Virus record (IMG/VR): IMGVR_UViG_3300036828_000363
Span: 29,236-93,235 of that record
DNA length: 64,000 nt
Origin: a virus
Reading direction: 5' to 3' (one strand)
The notes beneath the pieces are model-generated. The model searched no databases. It was not told the DNA's origin and was given only the letters and a program-made list of their open reading frames with translations. This document shows positions 12,404 to 19,247 of this stretch, piece after piece; position 1 is the stretch's first letter, and every line of letters begins with the position of its first letter. A program made the translations under genes and the position numbers.

Positions 12404-13072
12404 ATGGTTAAAGTTCAAGTCGCTTTTAATTTCAACGGTTCCGGTTACATCGGATTGCCTTACTGGCCCGAGCGGAACACAATCATCGACATCGGAAAAG
12501 ACGTTCATCCTAAACTGGGCGCGACGAAGAAAGAGCAAGCTCTGCTCGCGGCTCTCGAAAAGCGCGGTCTCAACAAAGAGCAGTACGAAGAGATGCAGAA
12601 GAAAGCTGAGCGTCCTTTCTACACCGTGGACGGTTCCCGTGAAGGCACCATCGCCATTCCGGAACGAATCATTCAGAGCTTCATTAACAATGCATCTATG
12701 CAGGCACCCAAAGCAATTCCGCGTGTGTCTGACAAGGGTTTGACTTTCATCGGAGTCAAGATTGCAGACAAAATGATGGTCACTGAGAAGACTATCACCG
12801 ACGCGAAACTCTTCGAGCGGTTTGTCAAAATGGAAACGTCCAACCAGCGCAACTGGTGCTCCAGTTTCTACATCGATGACTTCATTGCCCGGGGCATATT
12901 CTCCGTCGATGAGGAAATCATCATGCCCGACGATTTGAAAAAGTTGATCGAGTGGGGCGGGAAACAAATTGGTATTGGTTCCGCTCGTCCTCAGGGATAT
13001 GGACGGTTTCAAGTTGCTGGCTGGGATTATCTGACTCCCGTGCCTGTGACCAAACCGATTGAAGAAGAATAA
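12404..13072 (+). CDS. Stand-alone RAMP-superfamily (Cas7/Csm3-like) protein
   Basis: N-terminal strand VKVQVAFNF...YIG; IAIPERIIQSFINNAS (equivalent of IPGSSLKG.LR); C-terminal Gly-rich loop GGKQIGIGSARPQGYGRF; RBS AAGGAG. Confidence 0.8.
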   Translation: MVKVQVAFNFNGSGYIGLPYWPERNTIIDIGKDVHPKLGATKKEQALLAALEKRGLNKEQYEEMQKKAERPFYTVDGSREGTIAIPERIIQSFINNASMQAPKAIPRVSDKGLTFIGVKIADKMMVTEKTITDAKLFERFVKMETSNQRNWCSSFYIDDFIARGIFSVDEEIIMPDDLKKLIEWGGKQIGIGSARPQGYGRFQVAGWDYLTPVPVTKPIEEE

Positions 13073-13073
13073 A

Positions 13074-13115
13074 GCCCGAGTCGGAGTCCCTGTCCCGGTT
13101 GAAGTTACAGTCAAA
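13074..13115 (+). repeat. Single hexamer-periodic unit (7 x GYYNNN) immediately after the RAMP stop codon
   Basis: gcccga gtcgga gtccct gtcccg gttgaa gttaca gtcaaa. Confidence 0.8.
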
Positions 13116-13247
13116 GAGTAAACTATGAATTATAGGCTAGCTACTTTTGCGATTATGTCTTCGAGCTTAACTTCTTCCCAGAAGGCGAAAGCACTGATGA
13201 GGTTGATGAAGCAGGCAAACCGCAAAAAGAAAAATAAATTTATACAC

Positions 13248-13277
13248 TTGACATCCGTTTCAGAAATTGATTAGGAT
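13248..13277 (+). promoter_or_regulatory. Sigma70-like promoter candidate
   Basis: TTGACA-18-TAGGAT, overlapped by inverted repeat TGACATCC/GGATGTCA. Confidence 0.5.
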
Positions 13278-13451
13278 GTCAGACTAGAACGTATTTCCGC
13301 GTTTTCTTTGACATCCAAGTAAACTGCCTCATGGGTAGTTCACGTTCCTTTTGTCGGTGTCGTAACGAAGGGAACTGTAGAGAGAAAACCTGATACGTTG
13401 GGGAGCGGGGGAAATTCGACCGCCTCTGCTCCCACCAATTTTCCTACCAAA

Positions 13452-13493
13452 GCCACAGCCACAGACTCAGTTTAAGTCGCAGACTACGCCGAT
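13452..13493 (+). repeat. Second isolated hexamer-periodic unit
   Basis: gccaca gccaca gactca gtttaa gtcgca gactac gccgat then gaa. Confidence 0.7.
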
Positions 13494-14388: not shown

Positions 14389-14583
14389 AACTTTCACTCG
14401 CCGCGCAACAACTAGAGCAAATAAAGGCTGAGCGTAATCTTTTCGGGCCTATCCGGTCATATTTGAACTGGTGTTTGCATATGTCAAAGGCGGTTGATCT
14501 ATACGACCTGATTTGACATTTTCGCGAAGTTGTATCAACGTAGTAGTACCCACGGAAGAATCCGTGAACAAAGGAGTACCACA

Positions 14584-15675
14584 ATGGCAGCTAAAACTCT
14601 TAGTAAAGAGGCAGTTCTTCTGGCAGTAGCAGAAGAGAAGTTGGGTTTCTCATTCGGAAAACCAGATCGTCCATCCGAGAAATCTTTAGCTTGTATCCTT
14701 CCTATCCTTCGGGAAACCACATTTGTCCGTCAGTATGTCACCATGCCAGAGACAGAAAACGTTCTGGTGACCGACAGTGGAATGATCAACAAAATCAATA
14801 TCAAAAACACTGGGAAAGAAAACGTCTTCCTTCGCTCAGGTACTATCTTCGAAGGTAAAGGAACCCAGTCCAGAATTATTACCCGGAGCGCGGTATTGTT
14901 CCCCGGTTCGGAAGTCGCGCTCGATGCCCGGTGTGTTCACGCGAGTCATGGGATTCGTACTGGAAGCAATTTCAAGTACAGTGGCACCGTTCCAATGGAT
15001 GTTGAGAACGCGAGCTACACAGCAGGTTTCACTCCAGCAGATCAACACACGGTGTGGTCAAACGTCACCAGAACTACCACGGCCATGAATGCCATGCTGG
15101 GTGGTAAAAGAGTAAGCGCGGATATTTCAGGACGTATTCCCGGTGTTCGTCACACATTCACCTCAAGTCACGGTATGTTCGGTGCTTCAATATCTACTCC
15201 GCAAGAGGAACAAGGGGAACAAGAAAGAAGCTGGCCCGGATTCGCGCAAGACAACCTAAAAAAGAATTTTGATGAGTTCGCAGAGAACTTTGATGACATT
15301 CTTTCCAAGGCGCGCTTGCATGACAATCAGTGTGGGTTGTCTCTGATCACCGATACCGGATGCAAGACCATCGAATTGTTTGATGTCCCGTTGTCATGGG
15401 AGTCACTCCACAAAGACGCGGTCAAACGTATGGGCACAGAACTACTGAGAGGCGAAGACAAAACCAGTGTGTTCGAGTACAAACCCGAGCACGCAGTCAA
15501 CGCCGTCAAAAAAGTTCTGACGATGGACTTCAAAGCAAATATGATCTACGAGCACAAACCAGCAAACGGTGAACCACATGTCGCAATCTTCGGACTAACC
15601 TCGAAGCAGTACGTTGGTGAGGTGGTGGAGATGAGCGGGCAGATGATTCACTTGACCATTTTAGAAATGGCATAG
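14584..15675 (+). CDS. ARPP-1 (DUF6569)-like domain protein
   Basis: NTGKENVFLRSGTIFEGKGTQSRII...DARCVH, DQHTVW; RBS AAGGAG before ATG 14584. Confidence 0.75.
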   Translation: MAAKTLSKEAVLLAVAEEKLGFSFGKPDRPSEKSLACILPILRETTFVRQYVTMPETENVLVTDSGMINKINIKNTGKENVFLRSGTIFEGKGTQSRIITRSAVLFPGSEVALDARCVHASHGIRTGSNFKYSGTVPMDVENASYTAGFTPADQHTVWSNVTRTTTAMNAMLGGKRVSADISGRIPGVRHTFTSSHGMFGASISTPQEEQGEQERSWPGFAQDNLKKNFDEFAENFDDILSKARLHDNQCGLSLITDTGCKTIELFDVPLSWESLHKDAVKRMGTELLRGEDKTSVFEYKPEHAVNAVKKVLTMDFKANMIYEHKPANGEPHVAIFGLTSKQYVGEVVEMSGQMIHLTILEMA

Positions 15676-16169
15676 TCCAAGTCATTGACATGGTCAAAGT
15701 TGAAGCCGAAGTCCAAGAAGCCGGAGTCCCAGTTTTAGTTTAAGTCATTGCCAAAGTCGAAGTTTAAGAAGCCGAAGTTGAAGACGCAGTTTTAGTCCAA
15801 GTCTGGGCGCAGTCATAGAAGCCGAAGTCGCGGTCTATGTCGAAGTTATAGCCTTAGTCAAAGAAGCCGCAGTCAAAGTTTGAGTCCTTAGCAATGACAA
15901 GGTTTAAGTCGAAGTCTGAGAAGCCTGAGTCCGAGTCAAAGCTTGAGCTATGGTTGATGTTTAAGTCTGAGCTTAAGTCGAAGCAGCCGTAGTCTAAGTC
16001 CTAGCTAGGTCTAGGTTCTAGTCGAAGTCAAGGTCGTAGAAGCCGAAGTCGGAGTCACAGTTGCAGTTGAAGTCATAGCATGGACATAGACGAAGTCTAG
16101 GTTTGAGTCTAAGAAGCTAGTGTCAAAGTTCTAGTTGTAGTCGAAGTCGTAGTCTAAGTTGAAGTCGCA
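15675..16169 (+). ncRNA. Hexamer-periodic non-coding array, segment 1 (about 9 units), candidate guide-RNA array
   Basis: Runs of G(T/C/A)(C/T)NN(A>G,T) hexamers split by GAA; no ORF of 60 aa or more in six frames. Confidence 0.8.
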
Positions 16170-16187
16170 AAATCAGGAGTTTTTTTA

Positions 16188-16352
16188 ATGATCATGGATT
16201 TTACTGCAACTAAAAGATTTTTGGAATTGCTTCGTAAGCAAAATATGGATGGCAAGGTGTCCAAGTTGCAATTCGAACTTGAAGCATTACTTCTGCTTGC
16301 TGATGCTCAGAACAGTAAAAATTCCCAGCCCAAGTCGTGGTTAAAGTCATAG
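16188..16352 (+). CDS. 54-aa ORF embedded within the array
   Basis: RBS AGGAG at 16175; MIMDFTATKRFLELLRKQNMDGKVSKLQFELEALLLLADAQ...; non-repetitive island in the array. Confidence 0.6.
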   Translation: MIMDFTATKRFLELLRKQNMDGKVSKLQFELEALLLLADAQNSKNSQPKSWLKS

Positions 16353-17475
16353 TTACAGTCAAAGAAGCCATAGCCGAAGTCCGAGTTCAAGACAAAGCAA
16401 TGACTAAGTCTTAGAAGCCGGAGCGCGGTCACAGTTCATGTTTAAGCCGTAGTCACAGAAGTCGTAGTCGGTGTCAAAGTTTCAGGCACAGTCCTAGTTT
16501 TAGTCGAAGAAGCCGGAGTCGCAGTTATAGACCCAGACATAGACGTAGTCGAAGGAAAAGTCGAAGCATAGTCGTAGACTAAGCAAAGTCGAAGTAGCCG
16601 AAGTCAAAGCTTCAGTGGAGTCGAAGTCCAAGTCATAGTCTTTGGCGTTGTCATAGTCTCAGAAGCTGCTGTCCCAGTCTAAGTTGAAGACGTTGTCTAA
16701 GTCGTAGAAGCTTGAGTCACAGTCGAAGTTGCTGTTCTAGTCGGAGTCGTAGTCAGAGTCAAAGAAGCCAAAGTCTTTGCTTAAGTCTCGTTCCATGTCT
16801 AAGTCGTGGAAGCTGAAGTCGTAGTCGAAGTCAAGGCAATGTCGCGGTTATAGTCTTAGTCAAAGGCGCGGAAGTCGTAGCCGCAGTTGAAGACCGAGTC
16901 CCAGACTACGTTAAAGTCAAAGAAGCTGAAGTCAAAGCCTAGTCGTGGTCGTAGCTCAAGTCACAGTCGTAGTCAAAGAAGCCATAGTCGCAGTTGAAGT
17001 CGAAGTTCAAGTCACAGTCATAGAAGCCAAAGTCTGAGTCAAAGTTAGGGACGATGTTCAGGTCAATGTTTAAGAAGCTTAAGTCACAGTTATAGTCGAA
17101 GCTCAGTCAAGATCACTGTCCTAGTCAAAGAAGCCGAAGTCATAGTTGGAGTCGAAGTTATAGTTGAAGTCGTAGCTAGGTCATAGTCTCAGAAGCCATA
17201 GTCGAAGACAGAGACATGGTCGTAGTCTTAGTCGCAGTTGAAGTCGAAGAAGCCATAGCCAAAGTTCAAGTCGCGGATTCAGTCGAAGTCGAAGTTCTAG
17301 CACAGTTGCAGTCAAAGGCATAGTCCAAGAAGTCTAAGTCAAAGTCAAGGCCTTAGTCGAAGTCGAAGTCCTAGAAGTCTCAGTCTCAGTTAATGTTGCA
17401 GTCTATGGCTACGTCTCAGAAGCTGAAGTCACGGTCATAGTTCAAGTCAAAGTCTTAGTCATAGCCGAAGTCATG
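16328..17475 (+). ncRNA. Hexamer-periodic non-coding array, segment 2 (about 21-22 units), candidate guide-RNA array
   Basis: Same grammar; units of roughly 6-13 hexamers delimited by A-GAA-GCC/GCT/GTC. Confidence 0.8.
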
Positions 17476-18154
17476 GAAAAGTAATTTGTGTTCTAGCACC
17501 ATCTTCTGCCCATTTGATGATCGATGGTAGTCTGGATTCCAGTTTGAAATGTGATACCCATTTCAGCATTTTTTCTAACGTGTCCAGTACCCGAAGAGTA
17601 TTCTCTTCCGTCCTGTCCAGATGATGAGAACATAGCCCACCACGTGTTTTCATATCTGCTTGCATCATATTCCTAACTCCAGCTTTTTCCTGTCCACCAC
17701 TCAAAGTGAAAAATTCTTTCGGAACCATGAAATGCCTAAACCGAATACCTGCTGGATAGCTACAGTGAAATGGAATAGTAGTTGAGTATAGCTCACATCC
17801 ATAGTTTTCCCTGTTCAAATACTTGCAGTGTTCCTTTCCCGGTAAGCAGTTATCCATTACTGAGATAATAGGAAATTTCTCCCCGTTGAATTCAATCTGA
17901 CGTTCTACCCCGCCTTCGTGTTTCTCTCCCGGTAGCCAGTCCAGTGTCGCTCTACTACAACATGCTCCACACCCCAACTTACATTCAAAGCGAAGAAATA
18001 AATCCGGTTTGACGATTAGTTCCACTGGTTGAAAAGTTCTACCCGCATATCGAAATGGTTTTACTGCTAGCGCATGAAACCATACTTCAATCATTGATGC
18101 CACCATGTCGGATGGTTTACTGCCACCATTTCGAATTTGAATAAGTTCTAGCAT
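17471..18154 (-). CDS. YkgJ-like CxxxCxxCC cysteine-cluster protein
   Basis: FECKLGCGACCS...HCKYL...CELY...PFHCSYP. Confidence 0.75.
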   Translation of the reverse strand: MLELIQIRNGGSKPSDMVASMIEVWFHALAVKPFRYAGRTFQPVELIVKPDLFLRFECKLGCGACCSRATLDWLPGEKHEGGVERQIEFNGEKFPIISVMDNCLPGKEHCKYLNRENYGCELYSTTIPFHCSYPAGIRFRHFMVPKEFFTLSGGQEKAGVRNMMQADMKTRGGLCSHHLDRTEENTLRVLDTLEKMLKWVSHFKLESRLPSIIKWAEDGARTQITFP

Positions 18155-18341: not shown

Positions 18342-19247
18342 ATGGACAATTCGCCTCAAGAAACAAGATTTATTCCTCGTCGTGTCCCATTAGTCTTCTC
18401 GACTGAAAAACCAGTTACACCTCAAAAACAAGAGAAGTTCAAAAAATCCCGTCAAAATAGCATTAAGAAGGCGAGCGAGAAAAAGAGAGAAGCACGGAAA
18501 AAGCAAGAAATTTCAAATCAGTTTCTCTCAGTAGGTCAGGTTACCCAGTCCGGGAAGCTCACAGTTAGGCAATCTCTATTTGTCAGATACTTAGTTGAAG
18601 ACCCCAAGTTTTCAGCTACAGCTGCAGCAGAAAAAGTTGGCTATGCCAATCCAGCCGCAGTAGGTTCGAATCTACTTAAGCATCCCATAGTATCAGCAGA
18701 GATAAAACGCTTACTTAAGATCACCTCAAGGCATCTTGAAATCTCCGCTGAGAAAACCCTTTCAGAGATTGCTAATATCGCTTATTCCAATGTCTATGAT
18801 TACCTTTCGGTTAACCCAGATGGATCATGGACATTTGACCTGAAGAACATAAATCGTAATCAGGCATCGGCTATTCAGGAGATAGTTACAGAGGAAGAGA
18901 TACTCCGGGAACCCGTTACGATTGATGGAGTTAAACGATATACGAAGGTGCGCCGAACCAAGTTTAAACTCCATGACAAGCTGTCCGCGCTCAATACGTT
19001 GACTAAGTTCCAGCAACTCATGCCAAAAGAGGAACCTGAGTCTACCACCAACGTTACTATTAATGTACTAGACGCGATTATCAATGGCACAATCGGGAGC
19101 ATGAATGTCCAACAGTTGACAGAGGGAAGCGATCATCCAGCAAGGAAGTTGCCTAATGGTTTTGGTGCTCAAGCTCAGGCAGCTAGAAGAGCGATAGTTA
19201 ATGGAAGCAATGGTAATCCTCAGACTATCGAAGGTAGCTTACCATGA
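18342..19247 (+). CDS. terS: Terminase small subunit
   Basis: LTVRQSLFVRYL...SATAAAEKVGY...LLKHPIV; EIANIAYSN; KFKLHDKLSAL. Confidence 0.88.
   Translation: MDNSPQETRFIPRRVPLVFSTEKPVTPQKQEKFKKSRQNSIKKASEKKREARKKQEISNQFLSVGQVTQSGKLTVRQSLFVRYLVEDPKFSATAAAEKVGYANPAAVGSNLLKHPIVSAEIKRLLKITSRHLEISAEKTLSEIANIAYSNVYDYLSVNPDGSWTFDLKNINRNQASAIQEIVTEEEILREPVTIDGVKRYTKVRRTKFKLHDKLSALNTLTKFQQLMPKEEPESTTNVTINVLDAIINGTIGSMNVQQLTEGSDHPARKLPNGFGAQAQAARRAIVNGSNGNPQTIEGSLP

What the first reader, a model, noticed from the sequence alone, without database searches (positions are those of the whole stretch)
15675..17475. Variable triplets of array units read like codons: a gapped, wobble-insensitive target code
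Seen: deleting the constant triplets and joining the variable ones gives protein-like text. 16461-16508 gta ggt aaa tca aca cta tta gaa = VGKSTLLE (Walker A-like GKST). 16597-16661 = EKSGEQIFVIS (like the hhhhSH H-loop of SbcC/Rad50/gp46 ATPases). 15821-15862 = EAYEILK. The third base is mostly A, so taa/tga appear where Tyr or Cys/Trp would fit if only the first two bases carry information; for example 16665-16706 gc-cc-ta-ga-gt-ta-gt = A-P-Y-D/E-V-Y-V, like the PYDVYIGR motif of DUF4326 phage proteins. Inference: units specify targets as NNx-NNx-NNx, ignoring codon wobble positions, so conserved genes of competing phages or the host could not escape by synonymous mutation. Caveat: short degenerate peptides can mimic motifs by chance.
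Basis: partly seen in the sequence, partly recalled or inferred. Interest (0 to 1): 0.9.

Follow-up and report, generated by a model that had tools for sequence, protein, structure and literature searches.

The report
Phage VIPR guide array, six-base repeats
The array is the guide-RNA store of a VIPR system, a CRISPR-like phage weapon first described in 2026 in which only two bases of each short repeat spell the target; here the repeat is six bases long, not the published five.

Summary
Window 15675-17475 is a non-coding, + strand array of about 290 hexamers, NN-A-G-Y-C (G invariant, A 83%). The peptide-like strings stand at the stated coordinates.

Only the first two bases carry information. 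In units shared with the one related phage (L001), NN is unchanged while the third base and the Y-C bases differ at about the neutral rate. Examples are TAT/TAG, TGA/TGT and ATA/ATG.

The array is linked to a 222-aa Cas7-fold protein (12404-13072). That protein is followed by the same repeat grammar in this phage, its relative and two Acidobacteriota prophage-like loci. It aligns with the presumed Vipr of phage SUSP1.

Not shown here: expression, unit boundaries, the skip length for a hexamer repeat, and any natural target. One shared guide (APYDVYV) matches a DUF4326 gene of another phage exactly and in frame, but this is only a lead.

The papers I could read describe only 5-base repeats, so I class this as a new variant of a known kind. 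This scan has already reported VIPR loci in at least seven other genomes; those that give a repeat length are five-base.

The parts
12404..13072 (+). vipr-like gene: 222-aa single-RRM RAMP with a helical insert and a C-terminal glycine-rich loop (GIGSARPQGYGRF)
   Evidence: AlphaFold2 model pLDDT 88. Foldseek best hits are Csm3/Cas7 chains, E 4e-6. VIA-align Z 10-12 to Csm3, Cmr4, type VII Cas7 and gRAMP domains. hhalign to the SUSP1 195-aa protein: 95% probability, E 1.8e-8 over the last 58 residues.
13074..13115 (+). single guide-like unit of seven hexamers, starting 1 nt after the vipr-like stop codon
   Evidence: The same placement, an array directly after the gene, is seen in L343 and L344.
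13449..13490 (+). second isolated unit in the same grammar, just before the ORF at 13492
   Evidence: Whole-genome scan for the grammar, score 26.5 against a shuffled-genome maximum of 23; sequence.
15675..16170 (+). array part 1, about 88 repeat tokens; begins on the stop codon of the ARPP-1 gene
   Evidence: No ORF in six frames.
16188..16352 (+). 54-aa ORF with its own AGGAG ribosome site, embedded in the array; function unknown
   Evidence: Conserved in L001 at 74% amino-acid identity. No Pfam or NCBIfam family.
16331..17475 (+). array part 2, about 203 repeat tokens; ends against the 3' end of a convergent gene
   Evidence: RNA folding is no better than shuffles (z -0.41) and no hairpin-type inverted repeats are present.
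16039..16112 (+). unit shared with L001 (8038-8115): 12 of 12 NN identical (GA GG AC GC GA AT AT AT GA TA TG TA)
   Evidence: score 24 against a shuffled maximum of 14. Position 3 and the scaffold differ (ATA/ATG, TAG/TAA, TGA/TGT, GAC/GTC/GGC). WIN has a five-base unit where L001 has a hexamer.
15926..15988 (+). unit shared with L001 (8414-8476): 11 of 11 NN identical
   Evidence: score 22.
   Evidence: score 18.
   Evidence: score 14.
   Evidence: The NNx pattern matches a Pfam-confirmed DUF4326 gene exactly and in frame (L379:3366-3385).
   Evidence: reading needs one five-base unit. It did not reach 6 of 8 NN against any L001 stretch.

Best explanation
This is the guide-RNA array of a VIPR-type system. 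The array is probably transcribed on the + strand with the vipr-like gene at 12404-13072 (inferred).

Proposed mechanism, by analogy with the solved SUSP1 complex (inferred): one protein copy binds each repeat, hides the near-constant A-G-Y-C bases, and presents the two variable bases. The NN string of a unit, typically 7-9 pairs between GAAGCY punctuation marks, then pairs with a gapped sequence in target DNA. In the characterised systems one target base is skipped per repeat and it falls on the codon wobble position, so synonymous mutation gives no escape.

Shown here: the grammar, the link between protein and array, the homology, and the fact that NN is the conserved part.

Not shown here: transcription, processing, the skip length and the targets.

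The six-base period, the AGYC scaffold and the long tail-less array differ from every VIPR described in the papers I could read.
For: Grammar: lag-6 self-identity 0.50; G at position 4 in 244 of 247 hexamers; positions 1-2 nearly free.

Not coding: no open frame and no depletion of stops.

Link to the protein: the 222-aa gene is followed by the same grammar in this phage (unit 1 nt after the stop), in a Terracidiphilus genome (L343, short array 39 nt after the stop) and in another Acidobacteriota genome (L344, 1.1-kb array 15 nt after the stop). Both cellular loci sit beside phage integrases. The relative phage (L345/L001) carries a 94%-identical gene and a homologous main array. Only this gene is shared among the loci.

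Protein: Cas7/Csm3 fold, Z 10-12. Profile match to the SUSP1 protein that lies between GGY-NN arrays, 95% probability.

Information sits in NN. Shared runs of identical NN score 24, 22, 18, 16 and 14, against a shuffled mean of 9.7 and maximum of 14. Within them, mismatches are 0/47 and 0/47 at positions 1 and 2, against 15/47, 17/40 and 9/40 at positions 3, 5 and 6. Fourfold-degenerate sites of flanking genes differ by 0.29-0.36.

A partly held-out test gives NN 2/54 against scaffold 24/71, Fisher p 3e-5.

Units are reordered, gained and lost: a global token alignment scores within about 2.6 shuffle standard deviations of the shuffled mean and shows no excess of identical NN.

No self-targets, as the VIPR paper reports for its own systems.

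NN composition fits sense codon positions 1-2 best in all three arrays.

Published mechanism.
Against: The repeat is six bases and the scaffold is AGYC. The papers state a pentanucleotide motif across all seven types, and a survey of periodic arrays places VIPR at period 5.

The SUSP1 G-loop residues that hold the two guanines (D177, W178) appear as S and A in the aligned P0001 stretch, so binding geometry and skip length may differ.

No structured 3' tail, pseudoknot or ribozyme separates the units.

The profile match to SUSP1 covers only the C-terminal 58 residues, and the SUSP1 gene is identified by position, not by annotation.

No target was found in IMG/VR, in three genomes or records (this phage, G001, G002), or in 391 Acidobacteriota genomes.

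The held-out test restricted to tokens never used as seeds is too small to be significant (2/16 against 6/20, p 0.26).

The composition test is weak and partly reflects purine richness at position 1.
Confidence: 0.85

Rival explanations
1. It is a VIPR-like guide array, but the six-base repeat reads its target by a different rule from NNx: a skip of 0, 2, 3 or 4 bases, or RNA targets rather than DNA. The codon-like look would then be partly coincidental.
For: Four bases, not three, are held constant per repeat. The G-loop residues that contact GG in SUSP1 differ. Cas7 backbones of CRISPR complexes pair guide and target at the same 6-nt period. No NNx target was found.
Against: NN composition fits codon positions 1-2 better than positions 2-3, positions 3-1 or their reverse complements in three independent arrays. 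A six-base skip pattern would still land on alternate codons, so the composition test does not separate it cleanly. One shared guide matches a DUF4326 gene 7/7 in frame under NNx. In SUSP1 the target pocket for one skipped base is formed by thumb and bundle, not by the guide scaffold length.
Confidence: 0.2
2. It is the decayed remnant of a repeat-protein gene on the minus strand (Thr-x or Asp-aromatic repeats), and the NN pattern is leftover codon structure.
For: Many other IMG/VR arrays with a similar (NNN-GTN)n look are fully open on the opposite strand and encode T-x-T-x repeats. Frameshifts and stops are scattered through the array.
Against: Stops show no depletion in any frame. The same non-coding state persists in the phages (relative L001) and the two prophage-like loci, always downstream of the same RAMP gene and on its strand. 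In either minus-strand frame the conserved bases would be codon positions 2-3 or 1-2 of the variable codon, while the scaffold codon drifts, which fits no protein constraint. A one-base loss in WIN relative to L001 does not end NN conservation downstream. All 13 one-base losses fall after a GCN triplet.
Confidence: 0.03
3. It is an RNA scaffold or decoy that merely nucleates a Cas7-like filament, for example to soak up host type III CRISPR proteins, and the NN bases have no guide role.
For: Cas7 fold and a 6-nt period equal to the Cas7 footprint. RNA anti-CRISPRs exist (my own knowledge, not checked here).
Against: A decoy needs no conserved NN order, yet shared units keep NN unchanged while scaffold bases drift. 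Units differ from each other and turn over like guides. The protein matches Vipr in its G-loop region.
Confidence: 0.07
4. The peptide-like strings are chance products of a degenerate GAAGTC satellite with no information content.
For: Positions 1 and 2 are close to statistically independent, and GA is the commonest pair at 27%. Short peptides mimic motifs easily. Matches in 2.9 Mb of fetched DNA equal shuffled controls.
Against: Runs of 7-12 identical NN between the two phages far exceed shuffles: 9 seeds against 0.76 expected, and 7 diagonals against 0.92. This holds although neutral sites have diverged by about 30%.
Confidence: 0.03

Closest known systems
VIPR systems, type II of Escherichia phage SUSP1 and a Pseudomonas fulva prophage (bioRxiv 10.64898/2026.04.26.720920; structures in 10.64898/2026.04.26.720927)
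   Same: A small lone RAMP next to tandem short repeats on its own strand. Fixed bases alternate with a variable NN. The system is carried by phages or prophages. There are no self-targets. NN is the conserved, information-bearing part. The G-loop region is alignable.
   Different: The period is 6 (NN-AGYC), not 5 (GGY-NN). Units have about 7-9 repeats between GAAGCY marks, not 9-16 repeats followed by a structured tail or pseudoknot. The array is continuous over 1.8 kb with about 290 repeats. S and A replace the D and W that hold the two guanines. No recognisable vap gene. Targets and skip rule are unknown.
VIPR 'staggered' arrays and non-canonical repeat motifs (NNNGG, YNNNG, NNNNG; GAC/NN, CAC/NN, WGT/NN, TGH/NN in bioRxiv 10.64898/2026.10.21.760802)
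   Same: Continuous arrays without tails, in which one guide ends where the next begins. The scaffold motif can depart from GGY.
   Different: All are described as five-base repeats. That survey lists periods of 5, 7, 8, 10, 18 and 60-79 but not 6. I could not see the supplementary tables, so I cannot exclude that this lineage is among the 667 loci.
Cas7 backbone subunits of type III, VII and III-E CRISPR complexes (Csm3, Cmr4, Cas7-11 domains)
   Same: Best structural matches, Z 10-12. One subunit per 6 nt of guide is the known footprint (stated).
   Different: No CRISPR repeats or spacers here. The guide is read at 2 of 6 bases, not 5 of 6. The gene is solitary in the loci compared.
Thr-x / Asn-x repeat protein genes of phages and giant viruses, which give (NNN-GTN)n on the opposite strand
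   Same: Six-base periodicity with GT at fixed places; they were retrieved by the same pattern scan.
   Different: They are fully open reading frames, have no GAAGCY punctuation and have no linked RAMP gene.

Membership tests
VIPR (Vipr + vrRNA) | A small stand-alone RAMP (single RRM, glycine-rich loop, thumb, helical bundle) homologous to Vipr | tested here: met
   Model pLDDT 88 with three helices inserted after strand 1 and a C-terminal G-rich loop. Cas7-family matches at Z 10-12. hhalign to the SUSP1 195-aa protein gives 95.4% probability, E 1.8e-8, but over 58 C-terminal residues only. The SUSP1 gene was identified by its position between GGY-NN arrays, not by annotation.
VIPR (Vipr + vrRNA) | Tandem short repeats next to the gene, on its strand, alternating fixed bases with a variable NN | tested here: met
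   The same holds in L343 and L344, and L001 has a homologous main array.
VIPR (Vipr + vrRNA) | Pentanucleotide repeat with GGY or a related trinucleotide scaffold | tested here: not met
   The period is 6 (lag-6 identity 0.50 against 0.21 at lag 5). The scaffold is A-G-Y-C. Only 13-14 of about 290 units are five-base (NNAGC).
VIPR (Vipr + vrRNA) | NN carries the specificity while scaffold bases are interchangeable within their class | tested here: met
   Mismatches 0/47 and 0/47 at NN against 32%, 42% and 23% at positions 3, 5 and 6 in shared units. Neutral benchmark 0.29-0.36. Partly held-out test p 3e-5.
VIPR (Vipr + vrRNA) | Target read with a one-base skip that falls on codon wobble positions | tested here: inconclusive
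   NN composition fits sense codon positions 1-2 best. One guide matches a DUF4326 gene 7/7 in frame. No target was found for the two longest shared guides, and skips of 2 and 6 did no worse than 3 in the phage's own genome.
VIPR (Vipr + vrRNA) | Each guide capped by a conserved structured 3' tail, a ribozyme, or staggered processing | tested here: inconclusive
   No Rfam family, folding z -0.41 and no hairpin-type inverted repeats. This rules out a tail or ribozyme of the type II or type I/V kind. Staggered processing cannot be tested without RNA data.
VIPR (Vipr + vrRNA) | No self-targeting by the guides | tested here: met
   Best matches in the 93-kb genome equal shuffled-unit controls at spacings 2, 3 and 6.
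VIPR (Vipr + vrRNA) | Accessory vap gene (DNA-binding protein, nuclease or helicase) | tested here: inconclusive
   Only the vipr-like gene is shared with L343 and L344. The small ORFs and the ARPP-1 gene between gene and array have no DNA-binding family hits. The paper notes that some systems are minimal.
VIPR (Vipr + vrRNA) | Expression of about 100-nt guide RNAs that co-purify with the protein | not testable with these tools
   No RNA run holds the stretch.
CRISPR-Cas type III | CRISPR array of 25-40-nt direct repeats with unique spacers | tested here: not met
   Tandem and inverted repeat searches show only the six-base array.

The most novel reading that the evidence does not exclude
This is a previously undescribed VIPR lineage in soil Acidobacteriota phages and prophage-like elements, with a six-base repeat in which each protomer would hold four bases (A-G-Y-C). 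It shares its period with Cas7-crRNA filaments of Class 1 CRISPR. It stores about 30 guides in one tail-less 1.8-kb array whose units are shuffled, gained and lost like CRISPR spacers. It could be a structural intermediate between five-base VIPR and six-base CRISPR backbones, and it may use a different skip rule.
Probability: 0.5. Interest if true: 0.7.

Novelty: new variant of a known kind. Interest (0 to 1): 0.55.

Why it matters

What may be new is a six-base version. It shows that the Vipr scaffold is not tied to five bases. It gives a natural test of what sets the skip length. It also has the same period as the Cas7 backbone of CRISPR complexes, which bears on the proposal that CRISPR RAMPs descend from Vipr.

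Two features would interest people building programmable DNA binders: the long array of short guides (14-18 informative bases each), and the unit turnover seen between two phages whose neutral sites differ by about 30%.

Tried and rejected
- **Translation in any frame or alternative code.** Rejected: all three stop codons occur in every frame at the expected rate.
- **Minus-strand repeat protein.** Rejected.
- **More relatives by DNA pattern.** In IMG/VR only the L001 contig has multiple matches.
- **800 Acidobacteriota genomes.** Only the genome already in hand carries the gene.
- **Collinear alignment of the two arrays.** Within about 2.6 shuffle standard deviations of the shuffled mean, with no excess of identical NN.
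- **Target searches.**
  - Own genome at spacings 2, 3 and 6: no excess.
  - 2.9 Mb of fetched loci at spacing 3: no excess.
  - Exact NNx scans of IMG/VR for the two longest shared guides: 0 hits.
  - Up to 3 mismatches in G000-G002: 0 hits.
  - 391 genomes: one 2-mismatch hit, in frame in a chromosomal 174-aa ORF beside NmrA and TetR genes, and one 3-mismatch hit. About 0.4 hits at 2 mismatches or fewer are expected by chance, so I treat this as chance.
- **APYDVYV guide.** 97 exact IMG/VR matches, fewer than a uniform-composition estimate. One lies in a DUF4326 gene. About 30 lie in one unannotated phage protein family (YAPYDVYVN) with no PHROG match.
- **DUF4326 in the relevant genomes.** Absent from this phage, its relative and both Acidobacteriota genomes.
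- **RNA evidence.** No RNA holder listed.
- **tblastn of the protein against GenBank phages.** Nothing.
- **ARPP-1 as part of the system.** Not conserved with the module.
Full report
**What is there**

Window 15675-17475 is a one-strand array of six-base units. Self-identity is 0.50 at lag 6, against about 0.2 at lags 1-5. Secondary peaks stand at 39, 45, 51 and 57. AGTC occurs 24-58 times per kb inside the array and about 4 times per kb elsewhere. In the whole 93,235-base phage contig nothing comparable exists.

A dynamic-programming parse gives 247 clean hexamers:

| Position | Commonest base | Count or information |
|---|---|---|
| 1 | variable | 0.18 bits |
| 2 | variable | 0.30 bits |
| 3 | A | 205 of 247 |
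| 4 | G | 244 of 247 |
| 5 | T | 175 of 247 (C in 49) |
| 6 | C | 175 of 247 (T in 64) |

Units are punctuated by an extra triplet followed by GAAGCY. This gives blocks of mostly 45, 51 or 57 bases holding 7-9 variable pairs. Thirteen or fourteen units are five bases long (NNAGC), always after a GCN triplet.

A 54-codon ORF with its own ribosome site splits the array at 16188-16352. Two isolated single units lie upstream at 13074-13115 and 13449-13490, both on the + strand.

The four peptide-like strings are at the coordinates given. EKSGEQIFVIS needs one five-base unit to be read through.

The array is not translated. No frame on either strand is open beyond 55 codons. TAA, TAG and TGA occur in every frame. 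Stop-like variable triplets (24 of 247) are as frequent as independent base frequencies predict.

Similar-looking arrays pulled from IMG/VR by a pattern scan are a different thing. They are fully open on the opposite strand and encode Thr-x repeats.

**Only NN carries information**

One related phage, IMGVR_UViG_3300036791_000458 (L001, L345), has an array of the same grammar downstream of the orthologous ARPP-1 gene, the same position as the window's main array. Its flanking genes are 87-94% identical in protein. Fourfold-degenerate sites differ by 0.29-0.36.

The two arrays are not collinear. A global alignment of the NN strings scores within about 2.6 shuffle standard deviations of the shuffled mean and shows no excess of identical NN.

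Local alignment finds five shared units, in a different order, with runs of 7-12 identical NN. Their scores are 24, 22, 18, 16 and 14, against a shuffled mean of 9.7 and maximum of 14. A looser search finds seven shared stretches against 0.92 expected; six lie in or beside those five units and one is new.

Mismatches inside the five blocks:

| Position | Mismatches |
|---|---|
| 1 | 0/47 |
| 2 | 0/47 |
| 3 | 15/47 |
| 4 | 1/40 |
| 5 | 17/40 |
| 6 | 9/40 |

The drifting positions have therefore diverged about as much as neutral sites. The exchanges include TAT/TAG, TGA/TGT, ATA/ATG/ATT, GAA/GAT and AAA/AAT. The third base is free even where it would change or end a codon.

Because blocks were chosen on NN, I repeated the count on tokens lying between seed tokens. 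NN gives 2/54 against scaffold 24/71, p 3e-5. On the few tokens never used as seeds the result is 2/16 against 6/20, which is not significant.

A one-base loss in the window relative to L001 does not interrupt NN conservation downstream. This excludes triplet reading of the array itself.

**The protein partner**

It has no Pfam or NCBIfam family. Its model (pLDDT 88) matches Csm3, Cmr4, type VII Cas7 and gRAMP Cas7 domains first. Foldseek gives E 4e-6 and VIA-align gives Z 10-12.

Homologues are common in Acidobacteriota metagenomes. The only two found in species-representative genomes are each followed on the same strand by the same repeat grammar:
- a short unit in L343;
- a 1.1-kb array in L344, with 177 hexamers and G at position 4 in 174.

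Both loci sit beside phage integrases. Only this gene is shared among the loci; the ARPP-1 gene that abuts the window's array is not.

**Comparison with what is known**

A literature search found the VIPR preprints. VIPR systems pair a minimal RAMP (Vipr) with vrRNAs made of 9-16 YNNGG repeats plus a structured tail. One protomer binds each repeat, hides GGY and presents NN. NN pairs with double-stranded DNA while one target base per repeat is skipped, and that base falls overwhelmingly on the codon wobble position. Natural targets are rival phages and satellites, and guides do not hit their own contig.

I fetched phage SUSP1 (KT454805). GGY-NN pentamers flank a 195-aa gene there. The profile of the window's protein family aligns with that gene's C-terminal 58 residues, including the G-loop, at 95% probability.

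The SUSP1 residues reported to hold the two guanines (D177, W178) are S and A here. That fits a different scaffold motif.

**Where this locus departs from the description**

- The papers give a pentanucleotide motif for all seven types, with variants NNNGG, YNNNG and NNNNG.
- A survey of periodic intergenic arrays places VIPR at period 5 and lists no period-6 class.
- A third VIPR preprint mentions no six-base repeat.
- Here the period is six and the scaffold is A-G-Y-C.
- Units hold fewer repeats.
- Nothing structured separates them: no Rfam family, folding z -0.41, no hairpin-type inverted repeats.

The supplementary tables were not available, so I cannot exclude that the lineage is among the published loci.

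**Tests of the target code**

NN composition fits sense-strand codon positions 1-2 of this phage's genes better than positions 2-3, positions 3-1, their reverse complements or a uniform model. This holds in all three arrays, with and without the common GA pair. It is a weak test.

Matches within the phage's own genome and in 2.9 Mb of fetched DNA equal shuffled-unit controls. The two longest shared guides have no exact NNx match in IMG/VR. They have none within three mismatches in three genomes or records (this phage, G001, G002).

In 391 Acidobacteriota genomes one of them has a single two-mismatch hit. It is in frame in a chromosomal ORF, which is about what chance gives.

Its NNx pattern has 97 exact matches in IMG/VR. 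One lies in frame on the APYDVYVGRPSKWGNPF signature of a Pfam-confirmed DUF4326 gene. DUF4326 is absent from this phage and its relative. This is a lead, not a target call.

The Walker A and H-loop readings could not be tested further.

**Data quality**

Logan contigs of the probable source sample reproduce the array without a difference. A second soil sample holds an identical 151-base piece that includes a five-base unit.

L344 shows single-base insertions in its array and a frame break in its vipr-like gene. These may be assembly errors.

**Verdict**

Its specific target guesses remain open.

The kind of system is already known, and this scan has reported it in at least seven other genomes; those reports that give a repeat length describe five-base repeats. 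The six-base repeat makes this locus a new variant.

Noticed in passing
window 14530-15675: A phage-borne ARPP-1 (PF20208, E 1e-21) gene ends exactly where the array starts. Its nearest relatives (about 60-70% identity) are in Acidobacteriota. The family is proposed in PMC9503650 to act on ADP-ribose-derived sugars. It is not part of the conserved Vipr-array module.
   Followed up: partly
window 13240-13450: Between the two isolated units lie two TTGACAT promoter-like boxes and about 170 bases with G-rich and C-rich runs that could be a structured RNA. No Rfam family or tRNA was called.
   Followed up: no
L001 7249-7515: The relative's array holds a second embedded ORF, absent from the window, whose last codons run into the array in the E-V-K-E-A frame. 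Small genes seem to be inserted into, or born within, these arrays.
   Followed up: no
L344 10001-10629 and 10650-11765: The vipr-like gene of this Acidobacteriota genome matches in two pieces in different frames, and its array has seven single-base insertions. This is either a decaying copy or indel errors of the assembly.
   Followed up: no
L359 8480-9790, L376 5457-11387 and about 30 further IMG/VR loci: An unannotated phage protein family carries an invariant YAPYDVYVN motif that matches the shared guide 7/7 in frame. It has no PHROG match and many copies come from one metagenome.
   Followed up: partly
L015, L019, L026, L072, L076, L119: Long (NNN-GTN)n tracts in other viral contigs are open on the opposite strand and encode hundreds of Thr-x or Asn-x repeats. 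They look like this array but are not.
   Followed up: partly
window 17471-18154 (minus strand): A 227-aa ORF with a weak CxxCxxCC zinc/iron-chelating domain hit (E 1.6e-4) converges on the array end. The small terminase subunit gene follows at 18342-19247.
   Followed up: no
L343 3245-3300: The only guide-like unit of this Terracidiphilus locus reads almost entirely GA and TT pairs (GA GA TT GA TT GA AA AA GA). It may be a degenerate or placeholder guide.
   Followed up: no
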